From a virus: DNA of 10,131 bases. The notes beneath the pieces are model-generated. The model was not told the DNA's origin. It saw only the letters and a program-made list of their open reading frames with translations, and searched no databases. The DNA lies in UHGV virus genome UHGV-0819168; one strand, written 5' to 3'. This document shows positions 1-8,797 of this stretch, in pieces; position 1 is the first letter of the stretch; every line of letters starts with the position of its first letter. The position numbers and the translations under genes are program-made.

Positions 1-127
1 GCGCTGACAGCTTTACCTGGTGATCTTCAGCATCTTCCCGGGCTATTGTGGTTCGCGCAGTGGCTGATTTTGCTGACATCACCACAGGGGGCAGACGGAC
101 CATTGAACCATGGCCTCCGGAACAAAT
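1..127. repeat. Direct repeat copy 1 (127 bp, identical to 2177-2303); left boundary cut by window start
   Basis: Base-for-base identity of 1-127 with 2177-2303; identity stops at 128 (ttt) versus 2304 (aag). Confidence 0.9.
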
Positions 128-1993: not shown

Positions 1994-2022
1994 CCCCGGA
2001 TGATCACCGGGGTTAATTTTAT
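1994..2022 (+). terminator. Rho-independent terminator after the rha-like gene
   Basis: GC stem ccccgg (1994-1999) / ccgggg (2007-2012) with loop atgatca, followed by T-rich ttaatttt. Confidence 0.6.
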
Positions 2023-2176
2023 CGAGCGTGATTGCCGCTAATCGCCATCGCTCTGATTGAGCGTAAATCATTCAGGTTATTCAGTTCTTCCTTCTGCTCT
2101 CGCTGACGTCAATAAATCCCATCATTGCGATCAACCTCATCCTTAACCATTGATGCGAGCAGTTCTTCCAGTTTCT

Positions 2177-2303
2177 GCGCTGACAGCTTTACCTGGTGAT
2201 CTTCAGCATCTTCCCGGGCTATTGTGGTTCGCGCAGTGGCTGATTTTGCTGACATCACCACAGGGGGCAGACGGACCATTGAACCATGGCCTCCGGAACA
2301 AAT
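2177..2303. repeat. Direct repeat copy 2 (127 bp, identical to 1-127)
   Basis: Perfect identity to window positions 1-127 at a constant offset of 2176; flanks differ on the right side. Confidence 0.9.
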
Positions 2304-2343
2304 AAGGGCAAAAATAACAACCACTATCGAAAGCTCACAAACT

Positions 2344-2477
2344 AACCGCAGCACGTTCCTGCATACGACGTGTCTGCGGCATAATCCCAATGATTACTCC
2401 CTGACAGGATTTGCAGGCCACTCAATATCAGGTGCAGTTGATGTATCAACACGATTCAACAATACCCGATATTTATT
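2344..2477. repeat. Direct repeat A (~134 bp, ~90% identical to 3394-3526): 3' end of a tfa gene plus a 34-bp imperfect palindrome (2346-2379)
   Basis: Alignment by eye with 3394-3526; contains the last ~28 codons of the minus-strand tfa-like ORF and the palindrome ccgcagcacgt...acgtgtctgcgg. Confidence 0.85.
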
Positions 2478-2663
2478 CCATGCCTCCAGCAACGATCTTT
2501 CTTCCTCCGTTGCGATTTCCAGATCTACAGCATCCTGCAGTGGCGCAATATACTCACTGAATTCCTGGATGTAGAACTGTGTGGTGACGGTCTTCCAGCC
2601 ATTCGGCTCCTGCTGTATCGAAGCATACCAGGCTATTTCAATATCGCTATGCTGCGGCAGCAT
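2394..2663 (-). CDS. tfa: Tail fibre assembly protein, lambda Tfa-like C-terminal domain (89 aa; short, possibly chimeric or remnant)
   Basis: C-terminal 55 aa match lambda Tfa as recalled: [54 protein letters not shown] versus [56 protein letters not shown]-terminal 35 aa unrelated. Confidence 0.6.
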
Positions 2664-2690
2664 TTAACCCCTTGTAATTCATCGCCATAA

Positions 2691-2719
2691 TTGATTTAAT
2701 TCACAAATAAAACTATAAC
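2691..2719 (+). promoter_or_regulatory. Candidate sigma70 promoter for the methyltransferase gene (TTGATT, 17-bp spacer, TATAAC)
   Basis: -35-like TTGATT at 2691-2696 and -10-like TATAAC at 2714-2719. Its position implies a very short leader and use of ATG 2732 rather than ATG 2720. Confidence 0.35.
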
Positions 2720-3388
2720 ATGGTGAAATCAATGAAAAAAAACACAGATGATGGGGCTAAAATTTACACACCACTTACCCTAAAGCTTTATGACTGGTGG
2801 GTTTTGGGAGTATCAAATCGGCTTGCATGGGGATGTCCTACAAAGGAACACCTTCTTCCACACTTTCTGGAACATGTAGGTAACAACCATCTGGATATTG
2901 GTGTTGGAACTGGGTTTTACCTTACTCACGTACCTGAGAGTAGTCTGATATCTTTAATGGATTTGAACGAAGCTAGCCTGAACGCGGCATCTACAAGGGC
3001 TGGGGAATCAAAAATTAAACATAAAATTAGCCATGATGTTTTTGAACCTTATCCCGCGGCGTTACATGGTCAATTTGATTCCATTTCCATGTTTTACCTT
3101 CTTCACTGCCTGCCTGGAAATATATCTACAAAAAGCTGTGTAATACGCAATGCGGCGCAGGCCTTAACTGACGATGGAACTCTATACGGAGCCACAATTC
3201 TTGGCGATGGAGTTGTGCACAATAGCTTCGGTCAAAAACTGATGCGCATTTACAATCAGAAAGGCATCTTTTCAAACACAAAAGATTCCGAAGAAGGCTT
3301 AACACATATACTCTCAGAGCATTTCGAGAATGTTAAAACCAAGGTTCAAGGTACTGTAGTAATGTTTTCCGCTTCAGGGAAAAAATAG
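2720..3388 (+). CDS. Class I SAM-dependent methyltransferase (Rossmann fold, ~220 aa, substrate unknown); AT-rich moron; alternative start ATG 2732
   Basis: Motif I hh-D-h-G-x-G-x-G (HLDIGVGTGFY), post-I acidic residue (SLMDLNE), motif II (FDSISMFYLLHCLP), motif III (LTDDGTLYGATIL) in canonical order. No DPPY/NPPY or C5-cytosine MTase motifs. Markedly lower GC than flanking genes (about 37% in a hand-counted 60-nt line at 3001-3060). Confidence 0.75.
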   Translation: MVKSMKKNTDDGAKIYTPLTLKLYDWWVLGVSNRLAWGCPTKEHLLPHFLEHVGNNHLDIGVGTGFYLTHVPESSLISLMDLNEASLNAASTRAGESKIKHKISHDVFEPYPAALHGQFDSISMFYLLHCLPGNISTKSCVIRNAAQALTDDGTLYGATILGDGVVHNSFGQKLMRIYNQKGIFSNTKDSEEGLTHILSEHFENVKTKVQGTVVMFSASGKK

Positions 3389-3393
3389 CATCC

Positions 3394-3526
3394 AACCGCA
3401 GCACGTTCTTGCTTAAGACGTGCTGCGGCATAATCCCAATGATTACTCCCTGACAGGGTTCGTAGGCCACTCAATATCAGGTGCAGTTGATGTATCAACA
3501 CGGTTCAGTAACACCCGATACTTTTT
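3394..3526. repeat. Direct repeat B (~133 bp, ~90% identical to 2344-2477): perfect 11-bp-stem palindrome (3396-3428) plus a 27-codon tfa 3' fragment ending in a TAG where Trp is expected
   Basis: ccgcagcacgt (3396-3406) / acgtgctgcgg (3418-3428) perfect inverted repeat. Minus-strand translation of 3446-3526 gives [27 protein letters not shown], preceded by TAG at the Trp position. Confidence 0.85.
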
Positions 3527-3574
3527 CTAGGCTTCCACCACCAGCACGACAAGATGCCGCATACAGTGAACCAG

Positions 3575-3769
3575 TCAGTCCAGTTTTCAGACAACCAGTG
3601 CGTCACCTTTTTGAAGGCGCTTTAAAGCACGTTTTAATCCAGGTCGGCCTGTCCTTGTTCCGCTTAATTTATCTTCAAATATTTGTTCATATCCTGCACA
3701 AACAAGAGCGTTTCGTTGCAGATCTGTATTCTGGTCATTTGTTGATACCCTTACATAGCCAATCAGCAC
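3575..3769 (-). pseudogene. pin: pin/gin-family serine DNA invertase, 5' remnant only (~60 codons; TGG to TGA nonsense then loss of the remaining ~120 codons)
   Basis: From GTG 3769 (RBS gggag upstream): MLIGYVRVSTNDQNTDLQRNALVCAGYEQIFEDKLSGTRTGRPGLKRALKRLQKGDALVV-stop-KLD-stop. This matches the Pin/Gin/Hin/Cin N-terminus including the catalytic Ser in VRVSTNDQ, and stops where Pin continues WKLDRLGRS. Confidence 0.8.
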
Positions 3770-3823
3770 GCTGAATCTCCCGTCCAAAAGCACAAATCAT
3801 GCCATGCAGGCCAGAAACCGCCA

Positions 3824-3849
3824 TTATCTAAAACCTCGGTTTACAGGAA
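3824..3849 (+). other. Gin/Pin-family 26-bp inversion crossover site (pix/gix-like, right-type orientation)
   Basis: ttatctaaaacctcggtttacaggaa; reverse complement ttcctgtaaaccgaggttttagataa differs at one position from the gix sequence as recalled. Lies ~50 bp upstream of the pin start. Confidence 0.7.
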
Positions 3850-3894
3850 ACGGTAAACAAGGCTGGTAACGCCGTTCAGCGTTCCGGCGATAAA

Positions 3895-4863
3895 ATGACC
3901 GGAGAACTGAAAATTGGCACGGTGAATGCGCTGCGAATTTTCAATGATGCCTTCGGTCTTATTTTCCGTCGTTCAGAAGATTTTCTTCATTTCATTCCGA
4001 CGGCTGAAGGACAAGGCGAAAACGGTGATATCGGCCCATTAAGGCCATTCGCTATAAATCTGAGAACAGGTGCTATATCTGTCAGCCACGGGGCCAAAAT
4101 TGATGGTGGGCTGGCGCTTGGTACAGATAACGCACTGGGCGGTAATTCCATTACTCTCGGAGATAACGACACTGGTATTAAACAGGGCGGCGACGGTGTC
4201 CTTTTATTCTATTCAAATGGACAACTGGCATTTGGGCTTCAACCCGCATCTGCTGATTTTTATAAGCGGGTTGCATATATTCATCAGGGAATAATTCCTG
4301 ATGGAAGTGGCGCATTTGCAGACCAGTTGAATAATGCCACCGCGCCTTTTGTTCAGACGCAGTTTGCCTGGAATCCCACTCCTGGTGGTCATTACGTGCC
4401 GATAGTTAAGGGCTTGTCCATTCGCAATGGACAGGGCTATCCCGGCGCGGTCAGCTTTGGGTATTTACTGACAGAACAGTATGGATTTCCGGTTCCATGT
4501 ATTCATATGCGTGGCGATGGCGGTAATGATGCTTTATGGCAGTTTAACCCGAACGATAAATCCTTTATTTCACCGGGTGCTCTTATTGCGGGTGGCGTCC
4601 GTTATAACACCGATGGAAATATATTTGGTGGGTGCTGGGGGTCAAACTTAAATGATTACCTGAATAGTTCTTTTATCAGAAATGTGCGTCTGGGAGGCAG
4701 ACGTTCTGACACATTATATCGCGGAGGACTTTGCGAACCAGGTAATGGTCATGTGACAACAGGATTGCAAATTATTGGTGAGGTTGATGGAGATGACTGG
4801 ATGGTGTCACGACCACTACAAAAATACATTTCTGGTAACTGGTATAACGTTGAACAGGCATAG
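3895..4863 (+). CDS. Silent alternative side-tail-fibre C-terminal cassette; open frame runs from the crossover site (3832) with no own initiation context, expressed only after inversion
   Basis: Frame open from 3832 through the 3824-3849 site in the same phase as stf through the 6905-6930 site. Shares LGGNSITLGDNDTGIKQGGDG and C-terminal RPLQKYISGNWYNV with the expressed stf C-terminus. Confidence 0.65.
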   Translation: MTGELKIGTVNALRIFNDAFGLIFRRSEDFLHFIPTAEGQGENGDIGPLRPFAINLRTGAISVSHGAKIDGGLALGTDNALGGNSITLGDNDTGIKQGGDGVLLFYSNGQLAFGLQPASADFYKRVAYIHQGIIPDGSGAFADQLNNATAPFVQTQFAWNPTPGGHYVPIVKGLSIRNGQGYPGAVSFGYLLTEQYGFPVPCIHMRGDGGNDALWQFNPNDKSFISPGALIAGGVRYNTDGNIFGGCWGSNLNDYLNSSFIRNVRLGGRRSDTLYRGGLCEPGNGHVTTGLQIIGEVDGDDWMVSRPLQKYISGNWYNVEQA

Positions 4864-4878
4864 CCATCAGGAGAATAT

Positions 4879-5406
4879 ATGCAACATCTGAAAAATATTA
4901 CCGCCGGAAACCCCAAAACCATTGAGCAGTATCAGCTTACGAAAAAAGCTGGCGTTATCTGGCTATATACAGAAGACGGTAAAAACTGGTATGACGAATT
5001 AAAAAACTTTCAGGATGATACTTTAAAAATAGCTTATGACCAGAAGGGGATTATTCGTTGTATTGAGAAAGACGTATCAACACTTAACCCTGACGGGTTA
5101 AGTGTTGTTGAGTTACCGAATATAACAGCCAACCGTCGCGCCGATATCTCGGGAAACTGGAAGTTTCTGGATGGTAAAGTAGTAAAGCGGGAATATACAA
5201 AACAGGAACTGCAACAGCAGGCAGAGTTACAAAAAGCCGCTTTGCTTTCCGAAGCGGAGTCTGTGATTCAACCGCTGGAACGTGCTGTCAGACTGAATAT
5301 GGCAACTGATGAGGAACGCACACGACTGGAATCATGGGAACGCTACAGCGTTATGGTCAGCCGTGTGGATACTGCAAAGCCTGAATGGCCACAGAAACCA
5401 GAATAA
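4879..5406 (+). CDS. tfa: Tail fibre assembly protein (second copy, partner of the silent fibre cassette)
   Basis: [38 protein letters not shown].. is 60-70% identical by eye to the 5437-5970 Tfa; C-terminus ..[31 protein letters not shown] is the Tfa C-terminal pattern. AGGAG RBS at 4867-4871. Confidence 0.85.
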
Positions 5407-5416
5407 CAACAAATTA

Positions 5417-5436
5417 AGGCCCGTACGGGCCTTTTC
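5417..5436. terminator. Bidirectional intrinsic terminator between the convergent tfa genes
   Basis: Perfect palindrome ggcccgtacgggcc (5417-5430) flanked by A-rich sequence on one side and T-rich (ttttctt) on the other. Confidence 0.6.
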
Positions 5437-5970
5437 TTATTCTGGTGGTTCCGGGAATGTTACAGGAAGAACCGAGGTATCAGTTGTCTCAACCTGTTGC
5501 ACGTATCGCATCCAGTTCATCAGTTGCTGTCTGTCTGAATCAGTGATAATCCCCAAAGTAAGCTGTGTTTGCCAGAACTGCGTTTTTTCTCTGGCCTGCT
5601 GTAATAATATTTTTTTCTGGTTTTCCGTCTGTAGGCGCAACTCTTCTTCGGTATATACACGTTTAATGACTGCGCCATCTTTAAACATCCATTTACCTGA
5701 GTCGTCAGCACGCCGGTTGGCGGTAATATCAGGAATCTCAACGACGCTATAACCTTCAGGGTTAAGTGTGGAGGCATCTTTGGTTATGGCAACAATAATA
5801 TTATTTTCATCGTAAACAATCTTTATGGTGTCTGGCTGAAAGTTTTTCACTTCCTCATACCAGTTTTTTCCGTCCTCAGAGTAAAGCCAGATAACTCCGT
5901 GTTTCTTTGTTAACTCATACTGTTCCAGTGTTTTAGCATTACCCGCTTTTATGTTCTTTAAGTGCATCAT
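5437..5970 (-). CDS. tfa: Tail fibre assembly protein (currently expressed orientation), translationally coupled to stf
   Basis: [58 protein letters not shown].. matches the E. coli prophage TfaE/TfaR-type family. ATG lies 1 nt after the stf stop. Confidence 0.9.
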
Positions 5971-5971
5971 A

Positions 5972-8797
5972 TTAAACGCTCGCTACATTATACCAGGTGC
6001 CATTTATATACTTTTGAACGGGTCTGTAATAAACGCCCGCTATATTATCGGCAGAGTTAGACCCTGTATCCTGAACATTAATACCAGACAATACATGACC
6101 TGAAGGGCACTGGAAATTCCATGTTTGCCAGTTGTTCACTCCATAATATTGCTGTGAACCAAGTCGAACATCTTTCACATAACGGGAATCAAAGTTACCG
6201 TAATCCGAGGGGTTAACACGCCCTGTAATATTTATGGTTTTATTACTTTGAATGCTTCCGGAGACAAAGCGCATAACATGGACGTTATTAGCATAAACAT
6301 CCAGATTACCATCGCCATTTTGTTTAAAGCCCGTGTCATTATCACCCAATACAATCGAATTACCGCCAAGAGCACTGGATGTTCCGATACCCAGTGCACC
6401 ATTCAGTTGACCACCAGATAACGGCAGTGCACCAACATCTCCTGCTGAAGGCTTTCTGGTGGTGGTGTAAAATTCGGACCAGTCGGCTTCAAAACCATAA
6501 CCATCACGGGCTGAACGATAAAAAATACCGCCATTTTTATAATTAATCCGAAACTGAGCTGCAGGACAACTTCCTTCTCCCATATAAAAATGAATAATTA
6601 ACGTTGATGCACCACTAATAGTTGCGTTATAGGCTCCGCTACTCCAGTTCCATCCAACTGCTTTATCATTCGCAACGGTGCTTCCTGTTTTCCCTAAGGC
6701 AAACGCACCAACATGACTTGCTTTTAATGTGATATCGGAGGAACCATCAAAAGCCACATTGCTTATTTTCCTGGCAGTTTTTAATTTTGCAGCTGTAGAA
6801 GCATTGCCGGATAGTTCACCAGAAAGGCCACCGCTGAATGTTTGTCGATTAGTCCAGGTATTCGCTGTACTGAGTAACGGTATTTTCTCCCCGCTTGTGC
6901 CGAGTTCTCGTAAACCGAGGTATTCGATAACGGCGGCAACGGTCGATTTCGCAAGAATATCCCGCCCAACTTTTGTCAGGGTTGCCAGACTGGCAACATC
7001 ATTCCCCGTAAAATACGGAAACCTGTCTGCCGCAGTAGCAAGCCCGGCCAGCGCCGTCAGGGTGGCATCTTTCGGTTGCTTACCCGCAAGCGCGCTAGTC
7101 ATGGTGGTCGCAAAATTCGGGTCGTTGCCCAACGCCGCAGCCAGCTCGTTCAGCGTATTCAGTGCGTCAGGCGACGAGTCCACGAGGGCAGCGATCGCAG
7201 CCATAACATAAGCCGTGCTTGCGATTTGGGTATTATTCGTTCCCTGTCGCGCAGTTGGTGTTGTTGGCGTTCCGGTCAGTGCAGGACTATTTAAGGGCGC
7301 TTTCTTGTTCGTTTCACCCATTACCGCCTTAACCGCTTTTGGCGTTGCCGCCAGTGACTCGGAAGTGCTGTTGGTCGCACTGCTGAGCTGTACTATCCCC
7401 TTTTTCGTCGTGCTCGCATCCTCAAGCGCCACGGCGGATGCAATATCCTCTGCCCGTTTTGCCGCTGTCTCGGCGCGCGTTGCCGCGGATTCCGCCGTAC
7501 TTTTGCTCTGAGCTGCCGCCGTCGCACTGCCAGCTGCCTCTGTCGCCTTCGTGGATGCCGTCGTGGCGCTGCCCTTTGCTGCTGACGCCTGTCTGGTCGC
7601 CTCATCTTTTGAAGCAGACGCAGATGATGCCGATGACGCCGCTGAACTGGCTGACGATGCGGCTGCCGCCTTAGAGGAAGCAGCATTGTCTGCTGAAGTC
7701 TTTGCATTTGTTTCAGAGGTTTTTGCTGCAGAAGCAGACCTCGCTGCTGCAGTGGCTTGCTCAGTGGCTTTGCCAGCCTTCGTTGTGGCTGTTGAAGCGG
7801 ATGATGCGGCGCTTTCTGCCGATTTTCCGGCGGCGGTGGCACTGGCTGAGGCCTGCCCGGCACTTGTTGACGCGGCACTGGCAGATAATGCAGCCGCTGT
7901 TTTTGAACCTGCCGCAGCTGAGGCGCTCTGTCCCGCTGCTGTTTCAGAAGACTTAGCGTTCGTCTCGGACGTTTTTGCCGCCTTCGCGGAATTTCCTGCC
8001 GCCGTTGCCGAGGAAGCTGCACTACTGGCACTTGATGATGCATTCGTTTCTGAAGATTTCGCTGCCTCTTTTGAGGCCGCCGCACCCCGTGCCGAGGTGG
8101 CAGCTTCTGACGCCTTCGTGGTCGCTGTGGATGCAGAAGTGGCTGCCGATTTTTGTGATGCTGCGGCATTCGTTTCTGACGTTTTCGCGGCACTGGCGCT
8201 GGTAGCTGCCGCGCTTTTTGATGACTCTGCAGCAGCAGCACTTTTTGCTGCTTCACGGGCCTTTGTCGATGCCGTTCCTGCGCTGGAAGACGCTGACTGA
8301 GCCGACGACGCGGCCTGTCCGGCTGACGTGCTGGCGGCACGTGATGAGGCTGCAGCATCGGTTGCATGAGTTGCCGCCTCGCTGGCTGATGCACTGGCAT
8401 CGCTGGCTGATTTTTTCGCGGCTGCCGTATTCTGTGCAACCGCGGAGGCGTTACGTGACACCTCTTCTACCATCTGCTCAAAGCGGCGCAGTGCCTCCGG
8501 TCGGACATCATCCTCCGTCATGGCACCGAGAAAATCATTCAGCGTACCTGGTCTGGAACCTTCATAGACGGTAATGGTCCCGGCATGTGAAGGCGGAAAA
8601 CCTTCAACCAGCAGGGTGACGCTGTACTGACCATGCTCAACATCCATGCTGTAACGTCCGGCTTCATCCGGATTTTCAGAGGCCACCGTGTTCACCACCA
8701 CCGTGCTGCTGGTTCGTCTGGCCTTCAGCACAATGGTGCAGTTCTGTACTGGTTTTCCTGTGCCATCTTTAAGCACGCCAGAAATTTTTACTGTCAT
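5972..8797 (-). CDS. stf: Side tail fibre protein, lambda Stf-like (941 aa): conserved N-terminal domain, long Ala/Ser/Thr-rich repeat region, C-terminal ~310 aa encoded inside the invertible segment
   Basis: N-terminus [74 protein letters not shown] is near-identical to lambda Stf as recalled; repeated AAKTSETNA units; VIEYLG junction at the crossover site. Confidence 0.9.
6905..6930 (+). other. Gin/Pin-family 26-bp inversion crossover site inside stf (left-type orientation)
   Basis: ttctcgtaaaccgaggtattcgataa resembles gixL as recalled (TTCCTGTAAACCGAGGTTTTGGATAA), is inverted relative to the 3824-3849 site, and encodes VIEYLGLRE in the stf frame. Confidence 0.65.

What the first reader, a model, noticed from the sequence alone, without database searches (positions are those of the whole stretch)
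2344..3526. The methyltransferase cassette is bracketed by ~135-bp direct repeats that are copies of a tfa 3' end plus a palindrome
2344-2477 and 3394-3526 are ~90% identical at a constant offset. Each contains the final ~27 codons of a lambda-type tfa on the minus strand and a palindrome (perfect 11-bp stem in copy B, one-base bulge in copy A). In copy B the Trp codon of the tfa fragment is a TAG, and the adjacent pin remnant ends at a TGG to TGA change. The arrangement suggests the cassette arrived, or can be lost, by recombination between duplicated tfa 3' ends; the palindrome could be a terminator, an RNA processing site or a recombination site.
Basis: seen in the sequence. Interest (0 to 1): 0.6.

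Follow-up and report, generated by a model that had tools for sequence, protein, structure and literature searches.

The report
Prophage methyltransferase moron flanked by tfa remnants
The repeats are real, but they are the leftover ends of two lambda-type tail-fibre-assembly genes, each with its terminator hairpin, on either side of an accessory methyltransferase gene; the same arrangement is already annotated in E. coli K-12 (tfaD-ybcY-tfaX) and occurs in about 70% of complete E. coli genomes.

Summary
Window 2344-2491 and 3394-3540 are 88.5% identical direct repeats (131/148, one 1-bp indel, blastn E 1e-50). Each holds a lambda-type tfa 3' end on the minus strand plus an 11-bp-stem hairpin.

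It is not a new kind of cassette. It is the widespread lambdoid-prophage module that K-12 DLP12 carries as tfaD-ybcY-tfaX. The methyltransferase occurs in 3836 of 5426 complete E. coli genomes and in isolated phages such as ev243 and 2G7b.

Copy A is a tfa fragment of about 55 codons. Its junction to the AT-rich promoter spacer is identical in every locus in my set of about 95 that retains it, which points to one ancestral illegitimate join. Copy B is the end of an intact 194-aa tfa in 50 of 95 instances. Here it is cut to about 30 codons by fusion to codon 79 of a dead pin invertase gene.

The hairpin is lambda's own tfa/ea47 intergenic hairpin and most likely a terminator. Covariation support for it is not significant.

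An unoccupied allele (DUF4376, hairpin, full tfa, no methyltransferase) exists in 20 of 5426 genomes. The exact repeat-by-repeat deletion product of this arrangement was found in none.

Exchange through the tfa homology arms is plausible but not shown. Low novelty.

The parts
2019..2343 (-). 3' part of a DUF4376-domain (tail-fibre-like) pseudogene; conserved left flank of the module at the ompW attachment site
   Evidence: RefSeq annotation of the collinear locus H1. phrog_1141 / phrog_7703 hits. 96-99.7% identical flank in both the unoccupied and the occupied alleles.
2346..2379 (-). Hairpin A: arms 2346-2356 / 2368-2379, T2373 bulged, 11-nt loop. It lies 15 nt downstream of the copy-A tfa stop codon and is followed on the minus strand by UUAGUUUGU
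   Evidence: Direct reading. Fold z = -3.0. Terminator-like site flagged on the minus strand. Homologous to the lambda hairpin just after tfa.
2394..2559 (-). Copy A: the last ~55 codons of a lambda-type tfa (the K-12 tfaX equivalent), truncated at its 5' end at 2559/2560
   Evidence: Translation. Pfam Caudo_TAP profile positions 75-130 of 131. Alignment to full-length tfa genes shows the breakpoint ...CACTG|AATTCC. The junction is the same in every locus that retains it.
2560..2731 (.). AT-rich spacer (35-38% GC) carrying the methyltransferase promoter(s): TTGATT-17-TATAAC at 2691-2719 and TTAACC-16-CATAAT at 2664-2691. The minus-strand ORF 2394-2663 gains a non-tfa N-terminus here
   Evidence: Composition. 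Promoter scan. Genomic SELEX reports an RpoD peak and H-NS binding in the K-12 ybcY/tfaX spacer with the same hexamers (PMC3946193).
2732..3388 (+). Class I SAM-dependent methyltransferase (ybcY family, phrog_2132), substrate unknown. It is annotated from ATG 2720, but ATG 2732 is the likelier start
   Evidence: Pfam Methyltransf_12/23/25. phrog_2132 matches residues 5-222. Enterobacter homologues start at residue 5. 21 alleles, none disrupted, 14 synonymous and 13 non-synonymous variant codons.
3396..3428 (.). Hairpin B: perfect 11-bp stem with an 11-nt loop, 7 nt after the methyltransferase stop codon (+) and 14 nt after the copy-B tfa stop codon (-). It sits where a shared terminator of the convergent genes would sit
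   Evidence: Direct reading. Fold z = -5.3 / -5.1. Identical to the 3'-terminal stem-loop of the Rfam CssrB model. Follows the methyltransferase in every context examined.
3443..3535 (-). Copy B: the last ~30 codons of a lambda-type tfa, with TAG replacing Trp at 3527-3529
   Evidence: Translation. In HH97, K-12 and 50 of 95 instances the same position is the end of a longer or intact tfa.
3533..3769 (-). Dead pin/gin-type invertase gene: codons 1-79 of about 193, with TGA at Trp-61 (3587-3589) and at Arg-65 (3575-3577), fused to copy B
   Evidence: Translation. Pfam Resolvase. Alignment to Gin 4m6f/3uj3 residues 1-79.
3818..6936 (.). Context: 3.1-kb invertible tail-fibre segment bounded by gix-like inverted repeats (3818-3849, 6905-6936). 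It carries two alternative fibre tips and two tfa genes
   Evidence: Inverted repeat I2. ORFs and Pfam/PHROG hits. The segment is found inverted at 99.8% identity in strain EC15.

Best explanation
This is the right end (the side next to the b region) of a lambdoid prophage integrated in ompW. The 'cassette' is a common accessory-gene module (a moron) that sits just after the tail-fibre assembly gene tfa. On the tfa strand the order is:
1. the resident tfa
2. a terminator hairpin
3. a convergent SAM-methyltransferase gene with its own sigma-70 promoter in an AT-rich spacer (H-NS-bound in K-12)
4. a 55-codon fragment of a second tfa
5. a second copy of the hairpin
6. the flank.

The two repeats are therefore the 3' ends of two tfa genes, each with the hairpin that lambda itself carries between tfa and the convergent ea47 gene.

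Shown:
- The fragment/spacer junction is the same in every locus that retains it, so the module arose once by an illegitimate join.
- The module now sits next to several different tail-fibre systems and several different left flanks.
- Occupied and unoccupied alleles coexist at the same chromosomal site.

Inferred:
- The module spreads by ordinary homologous recombination. One crossover falls in the full-length tfa (or stf) and the other in the tfa fragment, hairpin or flank, so any phage with a lambda-type tfa can acquire it. Unequal exchange between the copies could remove it.
- In this window a later event replaced the fibre genes with a Mu/P1-type invertible segment. It left copy B as a 30-codon stub fused to a pin gene that then decayed.
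- The hairpins act as intrinsic terminators: for the tail-fibre operon on the minus strand and, at hairpin B, as the 3' end of the methyltransferase transcript.
For: - Repeat and reading frames.
- Same module in K-12 DLP12, as tfaX (168 bp), frameshifted ybcY and tfaD (146 codons fused to a terminase fragment).
- Methyltransferase in 3836 of 5426 genomes, 4882 places.
- In isolated phages.
- Invariant copy-A breakpoint, variable right and left contexts.
- Right copy is an intact 194-aa tfa in 50 of 95 instances. HH97 has the occupied site with a full tfa and a 211-bp repeat.
- Unoccupied allele at the same ompW site in 20 genomes.
- Hairpin homologous to lambda 22558-22615 between tfa and ea47, with one C-G to A-T compensatory pair.
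- The same hairpin is followed by canonical T-runs on the + strand in other contexts, for example CTGCGGTTTAATTTTTA after the O157 methyltransferase.
- The hairpin is the 3' stem-loop of CssrB, a ~180-nt RNA seen by northern blot in Shigella flexneri and located directly after the methyltransferase.
- Low GC across the cassette.
- RpoD SELEX peak and H-NS binding in the homologous K-12 spacer.
- Pin remnant.
Against: - No recombination event was observed directly. The precise copy-A x copy-B deletion product of this arrangement is absent from 5426 genomes.
- The unoccupied alleles carry a tfa 4-7% different from every sampled copy A or copy B. They are neither clear ancestors nor clear excision products.
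- Hairpin covariation is not statistically significant. There is 1 compensatory pair, and 75-96 of 500 shuffles do as well.
- In this window hairpin B has no U-tract on the + strand, and its minus-strand U-run is 9 nt away. Its terminator efficiency here is uncertain.
- The CssrB 3' end was predicted by its authors, not mapped.
- The methyltransferase substrate is unknown.
Confidence: 0.78

Rival explanations
1. The palindrome is the recognition site of a dedicated mobility system (a hairpin-specific HUH transposase, an integron-like attC, or a REP/RAYT-type element). On this view the 1-kb unit is a site-specific cassette that inserts at tfa-terminal hairpins.
For: Several mosaic joints fall exactly at the 3' edge of the hairpin. 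At least five different sequences follow CTGCGG in different loci. The hairpin is present at both ends of the unit.
Against: - The unit encodes no recombinase; its only intact gene is the methyltransferase.
- The duplicated sequence is 148-211 bp of coding DNA rather than a short site.
- Other joints fall inside tfa, at 98, 120 and 139 nt from the stop, not at the hairpin.
- K-12 copy A lacks the hairpin altogether.
- The hairpin is present in lambda itself, where no cassette exists.
- Joints at gene and terminator edges are what selection on functional recombinants would produce.
Confidence: 0.04
2. The repeats arose in situ in this prophage as a tandem duplication of the tfa end, or as a long target duplication when the methyltransferase DNA inserted. 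That would make this locus a recent, independent acquisition.
For: Direct repeats bracketing foreign, lower-GC DNA resemble an insertion footprint.
Against: - The two copies differ by 11.5%, while whole-locus identity to other strains is 99.7-99.9%.
- The copy-A/spacer junction is the same in K-12, O157, HH97, phage 2G7b and every other locus that retains it. The join therefore long predates this prophage.
- 148-211 bp is far beyond any known transposition target duplication (from my own knowledge).
Confidence: 0.04
3. The tfa fragment is not debris. The 89-aa ORF (2394-2663, phrog_2341), or the RNA transcribed from the divergent promoter, is functional. It could be a decoy C-terminal Tfa domain that interferes with fibre assembly of competing phages, or an RNA acting on co-resident tfa genes. 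On this view the repeat is kept by selection.
For: - The ORF is open in most alleles and has its own PHROG.
- Variant codons split 23 synonymous to 24 non-synonymous.
- The RpoD SELEX peak is assigned to both directions of the K-12 spacer.
- Rfam lists the tfa region as candidate RNA IS009.
Against: - About 10 of 32 alleles carry premature stops or frameshifts. The stops fall at codons 12, 29 and 62 and the frameshifts near codons 46 and 79.
- The C-terminus is replaced in several contexts.
- The excess of synonymous changes is expected if the fragment exchanges sequence with functional tfa genes.
- IS009 scores best on K-12 tfaD coding sequence, so it is probably a pseudogene catalogued as an RNA.
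- The window hit is below the Rfam gathering score (112.5 < 117).
Confidence: 0.07

Closest known systems
E. coli K-12 DLP12 prophage right end: tfaD - ybcY - tfaX (then appY, ompT)
   Same: Same methyltransferase (98.8-98.9% nucleotide identity). Same truncated tfa fragment with the identical breakpoint and spacer. Same hairpin after the methyltransferase. Same convergent layout.
   Different: - In K-12 ybcY is frameshifted.
- The right copy (tfaD) keeps 146 codons and is fused to a terminase fragment instead of pin.
- The left copy (tfaX) has lost its own 3' end and its hairpin, and itself carries TAG at the same Trp codon.
Bacteriophage lambda tfa / ea47 intergenic region (J02459 22558-22685)
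   Same: The hairpin and the last ~55 tfa codons are homologous (84% over 235 bp). The hairpin lies between tfa and a convergent gene, as hairpin B does here.
   Different: Lambda has one copy and no methyltransferase; ea47 occupies the convergent position. Its stem has A-T where the window has C-G. From memory, terminators at the end of the lambda late operon were described by Luk and Szybalski in 1983. I could not check that this hairpin is one of them.
Morons of lambdoid phages (Hendrix, Juhala and colleagues; concept cited from my own knowledge)
   Same: An extra gene with its own promoter and terminator and a lower GC content, inserted between neighbours that are adjacent in related phages.
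   Different: This moron carries a 55-codon piece of the neighbouring gene as a second flank. That gives it homology arms on both sides.
Rfam RF02799 CssrB (Shigella flexneri sRNA B) and RF02111 IS009
   Same: The 3' stem-loop of CssrB is base-for-base hairpin B. In Shigella and O157-type loci CssrB lies directly after the same methyltransferase. IS009 matches the tfa sequence of both copies.
   Different: The 133-nt body of CssrB is absent here, replaced by tfa and pin remnants. That hit scores 32.6 bits against a gathering score of 76. IS009 scores 112.5 against 117, and the family is built on tfaD coding sequence.
Mu G / P1 C / e14 P invertible tail-fibre segments with gin/cin/pin
   Same: The right neighbour of copy B is a pin-type gene next to gix-like 26-32-bp inverted repeats. 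These bracket alternative fibre tips and tfa genes.
   Different: The invertase gene is truncated at codon 79 and carries two stop codons. It is context, not part of the repeat mechanism.

Membership tests
ybcY-type prophage methyltransferase module (K-12 tfaD-ybcY-tfaX) | Methyltransferase orthologous to ybcY | tested here: met
   98.8-100% nucleotide identity over 730 bp to K-12 and 3836 genomes; phrog_2132 at E 4e-157.
ybcY-type prophage methyltransferase module (K-12 tfaD-ybcY-tfaX) | Truncated tfa fragment upstream of and divergent from the methyltransferase, with the same breakpoint and spacer | tested here: met
   Window 2417-3537 is collinear with K-12 at 97%. The junction is the same in every locus that retains it.
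ybcY-type prophage methyltransferase module (K-12 tfaD-ybcY-tfaX) | A second tfa 3' end convergent with the methyltransferase, separated from it by the hairpin | tested here: met
Moron (autonomous accessory gene unit in a lambdoid phage) | Own promoter | tested here: inconclusive
   Consensus-like hexamers at 2664-2691 and 2691-2719 (direct reading). An RpoD SELEX peak lies in the homologous K-12 spacer (PMC3946193). There are no transcript data for this locus.
Moron (autonomous accessory gene unit in a lambdoid phage) | Own terminator | tested here: inconclusive
   A stable GC-rich hairpin lies 7 nt after the stop codon, but no U-tract follows it on the + strand in this window. Other loci have one.
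Moron (autonomous accessory gene unit in a lambdoid phage) | Absent from the same position in related phages, and of different base composition | tested here: met
   Unoccupied alleles in 20 genomes and in lambda. GC is 35-44% in the cassette against 45-53% in the flanks.
Rho-independent terminator | GC-rich stem-loop followed directly by a U-tract, at the end of a transcription unit | tested here: inconclusive
   - Stem of 11 bp with 7 G-C pairs.
- Minus-strand tails are UUAGUUUGU (A) and UUGGAUGCUAUUUUUU (B).
- The plus-strand tail is CAUAAUCCC.
- The position after tfa and after the methyltransferase fits.
Rho-independent terminator | Mapped RNA 3' ends | not testable with these tools
   There is only indirect support: the CssrB northern band of about 180 nt, with a 3' end that the authors predicted rather than mapped.
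Rfam CssrB (RF02799) | Score at or above the gathering threshold over the full model | tested here: not met
   32.6 bits against 76; only the terminal hairpin matches. Full matches of 230 bits occur in L091 and L072.
Rfam IS009 (RF02111) | Score at or above the gathering threshold | tested here: not met
   112.5 and 43.5 bits against 117.
Transposable element or insertion with target-site duplication | Short target duplication, terminal inverted repeats and a transposase | tested here: not met
   The repeat is 148-211 bp at 88.5% identity. No terminal inverted repeats were found at the ends of the unit. No transposase domain was found.
Gin/Pin/Hin DNA invertase system (context only) | Intact serine recombinase gene | tested here: not met
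   Only codons 1-79 of about 193 remain, with two in-frame TGA codons.

The most novel reading that the evidence does not exclude
The truncated tfa fragment and the duplicated terminator hairpin may be more than debris. They could be a selected pair of portable homology arms that let this methyltransferase moron move by host RecA or phage Red recombination into any phage with a lambda-type tfa. That would explain why one ancestral junction now sits beside at least four different tail-fibre systems and in 70% of E. coli genomes. A weaker variant is that the 89-aa Tfa-C-terminal ORF acts as a decoy against competing phages.
Probability: 0.12. Interest if true: 0.45.

Novelty: already known. Interest (0 to 1): 0.15.

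Why it matters
The value here is mainly in correct annotation. The finding explains why two tfa pseudogene stubs flank a methyltransferase gene in hundreds of RefSeq genomes. It shows that Rfam IS009 is tfa coding sequence. It ties the CssrB 3' stem-loop to a shared prophage terminator.

The locus is a clean, data-rich example of how a moron travels with a piece of its neighbour as a homology arm, and it could serve as a model for measuring recombination-driven moron exchange. The one open biological question is what the ybcY-family methyltransferase does. It is very common, it is intact here, none of the 21 sampled alleles is disrupted, and nobody has tested it.

Tried and rejected
- Exact deletion product. 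I built the predicted junction (left flank + chimeric repeat + pin flank). No place covers 80% or more of the 328-nt query in 5426 genomes. All 40 listed hits to the 812-nt version were the occupied site split into two pieces.\n- Chimera test on the unoccupied allele. No sampled occupied locus has a copy A and copy B that together reconstruct the strain-10 tfa. Ancestral versus derived is therefore unresolved.\n- Hairpin covariation over 14 distinct variants. 96% of cells are paired but there is only one compensatory pair, which is not significant.\n- Origin of the spacer and the non-tfa N-terminus of the 89-aa ORF. tblastx against Enterobacter loci that hold 61-64% homologues, and a MAG locus with a 41% homologue, found nothing.\n- Context of the Enterobacter homologues. 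The contexts differ (prlC-like peptidase; flhE/flhA with a Peptidase_S74 fibre fragment) and give no functional clue.\n- Methyltransferase function:\n - Only weak PDB hits, to UbiG and juvenile-hormone acid methyltransferase, at E about 1e-3.\n - NCBIfam hits far below their cut-offs.\n - Single-sequence AlphaFold gave pLDDT 32, which is unusable, so no fold search was run.\n- Literature. No functional study of ybcY was found, and no paper on a lambda tfa/ea47 terminator was found in the library.\n- A fuzzy-regex scan timed out and was replaced by an anchored pattern.
Full report
OBSERVATION

The window holds two direct repeats, 2344-2491 and 3394-3540. They share 131 of 148 positions (88.5%) with one 1-bp indel. 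blastn of copy A against the whole window finds copy B at E = 1.4e-50, and everything else is at E about 1. The longest perfect runs are 41 and 39 bp.

On the minus strand:
- Copy A reads ...[54 protein letters not shown].
- Copy B reads [29 protein letters not shown].

Copy A matches Pfam Caudo_TAP positions 75-130 of 131. Both copies end in a hairpin:
- Copy B has a perfect 11-bp stem (3396-3406 / 3418-3428).
- Copy A has the same stem with T2373 bulged (2346-2356 / 2368-2379).
- Fold z-scores on the tfa-sense strand are -5.3 and -3.0.

The TAG in copy B is at 3527-3529.

The pin remnant aligns to Gin (PDB 4m6f) residues 1-79. It has TGA at Trp-61 and a second TGA at Arg-65, and it runs straight into the tfa fragment.

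- The repeats are about 14 bp longer than stated.
- The offset changes by one base at the indel.
- Copy A holds about 55 tfa codons rather than 27.
- The pin homology continues 18 codons beyond the first stop.

CONTEXT

The window is the right end of a lambdoid prophage inserted in ompW, next to trp and yciEFG. On the minus strand, reading right to left, the order is:
1. lom
2. a 941-aa side tail fibre gene
3. a 3.1-kb invertible segment bounded by gix-like inverted repeats (3818-3849 and 6905-6936), carrying two fibre tips and two tfa genes
4. the dead pin
5. copy B
6. the methyltransferase, on the opposite strand
7. copy A
8. a DUF4376 pseudogene
9. Rha and Ash genes
10. the 126-bp ompW attachment-site fragment.

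WHAT THE CASSETTE IS

The unique part of the cassette (2664-3393) is present at 98% or higher identity in 3836 of 5426 complete E. coli genomes, in 4882 places and up to four per genome.

In K-12 it is the right end of the DLP12 prophage. There the order is a 168-bp tfa pseudogene (tfaX), the frameshifted methyltransferase (ybcY), and a 146-codon tfa pseudogene (tfaD) fused to a terminase fragment. The gene names are from my own knowledge of the K-12 annotation.

The module also occurs elsewhere:
- In O157:H7, beside an IS66 element.
- In isolated phages such as ev243, 2G7b and the PhiR series.

I compared about 95 module instances from IMG/VR, GTDB genomes and RefSeq.
- Wherever the left tfa fragment is retained it is truncated at the same base...CACTG|AATTCC at window 2559/2560, and is followed by the same 160-bp spacer. 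This points to one ancestral illegitimate join.
- The right copy, by contrast, is the end of an intact 194-aa tfa in 50 instances. It is truncated at various points in 31 instances, including the pin fusion seen here, a K-12-type fusion, and stubs of 120 and 139 nt beside unrelated fibre genes. It is absent in 13 instances, where other DNA follows the hairpin.
- In strain HH97, at the same ompW site, the right copy is a full tfa and the repeat is 211 bp long.

The 148-bp length seen in this window is therefore a secondary consequence of the pin::tfa fusion.

UNOCCUPIED ALLELES AND DELETION PRODUCTS

Strain 10 carries, at the same ompW site, the DUF4376 flank, one hairpin and an uninterrupted 194-aa tfa with no methyltransferase. 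Twenty of 5426 genomes have this configuration as one contiguous match.

The flank is 99.4-99.7% identical to occupied alleles. The tfa 3' region, however, is only 92.6-95.8% identical to either copy in any sampled occupied locus. These alleles therefore differ by replacement of a tfa-containing segment, not by a simple excision. I cannot say which state is ancestral.

The precise product expected from copy A x copy B recombination in the pin-fused arrangement is absent from all 5426 genomes. About 376 genomes carry the occupied form, many of them ST131 and so not independent.

THE HAIRPIN

Lambda itself has the homologous hairpin immediately after tfa, in the 128-bp gap before the convergent ea47 gene. 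Where the window stem has C-G, lambda has A-T.

Among 14 distinct variants the loop varies while 96% of stem cells pair. With only one compensatory pair the covariation is not significant.

In other loci the same hairpin is followed by canonical T-runs on the plus strand, for example CTGCGGTTTAATTTTTA after the O157 methyltransferase and CTGCGGTTTTTCTTTTT elsewhere.

The Rfam model CssrB ends in exactly hairpin B. Full-length CssrB (230 bits) lies directly after the methyltransferase, on the opposite strand, in Shigella flexneri and O157-type loci. CssrB was detected as a band of about 180 nt on northern blots, but its 3' end was only predicted (PMC3071730).

I conclude that the hairpin is most likely the intrinsic terminator at the end of the tail-fibre operon, and that hairpin B also sits where it could serve the convergent methyltransferase gene. 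In this window the U-tracts are imperfect, so efficiency here is uncertain.

THE METHYLTRANSFERASE UNIT

- GC content falls to 35-44% across the spacer and gene.
- The spacer holds TTGATT-17-TATAAC at 2691-2719. This is the promoter that genomic SELEX assigned to ybcY in K-12, together with H-NS binding (PMC3946193). A second consensus-like site lies at 2664-2691.
- PHROG and Enterobacter homologues begin at residue 5, so ATG 2732 is the likelier start.
- The protein is a class I SAM methyltransferase of unknown substrate.
- None of its 21 sampled alleles is disrupted, and 14 synonymous and 13 non-synonymous variant codons were seen. This is consistent with moderate purifying selection.
- The tfa fragment shows premature stops or frameshifts in about 10 of 32 alleles and has a replaced C-terminus in several contexts. 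I read it as a pseudogene.

MECHANISM

Shown:
- One ancient junction.
- Many backgrounds.
- Coexisting occupied and unoccupied alleles.

Inferred: the module carries tfa sequence on both sides. A double crossover, one in the full tfa or stf and one in the fragment, hairpin or flank, can therefore place it in any phage with a lambda-type tfa. Unequal exchange between the copies could remove it. The 39-41-bp perfect blocks are above the roughly 25-bp minimum for RecA recombination that I recall from the literature, though the 11.5% divergence should keep rates low.

Nothing suggests a dedicated recombinase. The unit has no such gene, some joints lie inside tfa rather than at the hairpin, and K-12 copy A lacks the hairpin.

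VERDICT

The finding is real and well described, but the object is ordinary and already annotated. It is a moron with remnants of its neighbouring gene as flanks, in a region of lambdoid genomes known to be mosaic. The duplication itself is ancient rather than a footprint of a recent arrival. Interest is low.

Noticed in passing
window 1-127 and 2177-2303: A perfect 127-bp direct repeat. Bases 1-127 are a DUF4376 fragment fused to a 5'-truncated integrase gene (48-797), followed by the ompW attachment fragment (843-965). In strain EC15 the integrase is full length and preceded by xis and exo. The window therefore seems to hold the deletion remnant of a second prophage integrated in tandem at ompW.
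   Followed up: partly
window 3818-6936: The 3.1-kb tail-fibre segment between the gix-like repeats is inverted in strain EC15 at 99.8% identity, while both flanks stay collinear, including the same dead pin. The inversion apparently happened after pin was inactivated. That implies an invertase supplied in trans by another element.
   Followed up: partly
window 2720-2734: The annotated methyltransferase start (ATG 2720) abuts the -10 hexamer of the SELEX-assigned promoter. PHROG and Enterobacter homologues start at residue 5, and a GGTGA lies 5 nt before ATG 2732. The true start is probably 2732, giving 218 aa.
   Followed up: partly
window 2437-2640 and 3486-3565; L002 4821-5019: Rfam IS009 (RF02111) matches tfa sequence and scores best (228 bits) inside the K-12 tfaD pseudogene. 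The family looks like tfa coding DNA catalogued as a candidate sRNA.
   Followed up: partly
window 3333-3470 (-): A 45-aa ORF overlaps the methyltransferase 3' end and hairpin B. RefSeq annotates it as 'hypothetical protein', and in K-12 as 'nucleocapsid protein'. It is probably a spurious call.
   Followed up: no
L002 3740-3907 (K-12 tfaX) versus window 3527-3529: The same Trp codon is TAG in K-12 copy A and in the window's copy B. The surrounding DNA is only about 80% identical, so these look like independent TGG-to-TAG hits.
   Followed up: partly
L050 261-517: A variant in which DUF4376 flank position 153 is joined directly to spacer position 53. Hairpin A and the whole tfa fragment are deleted while the methyltransferase is kept. 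The left arm can therefore be lost by illegitimate deletion.
   Followed up: no
L099 2333-2869 and 2947-3660: In an Enterobacter chromosome a 61% identical methyltransferase homologue sits just after a Peptidase_S74 (fibre chaperone) fragment, beside flhE and flhA. The association of this methyltransferase family with tail-fibre gene ends may therefore extend beyond lambda-type tfa.
   Followed up: no
L090, L095, L101: Short contigs binned as Bacillus sp., Planococcaceae and Segatella copri MAGs carry the E. coli module at 97-99% protein identity. This is most likely binning contamination.
   Followed up: no
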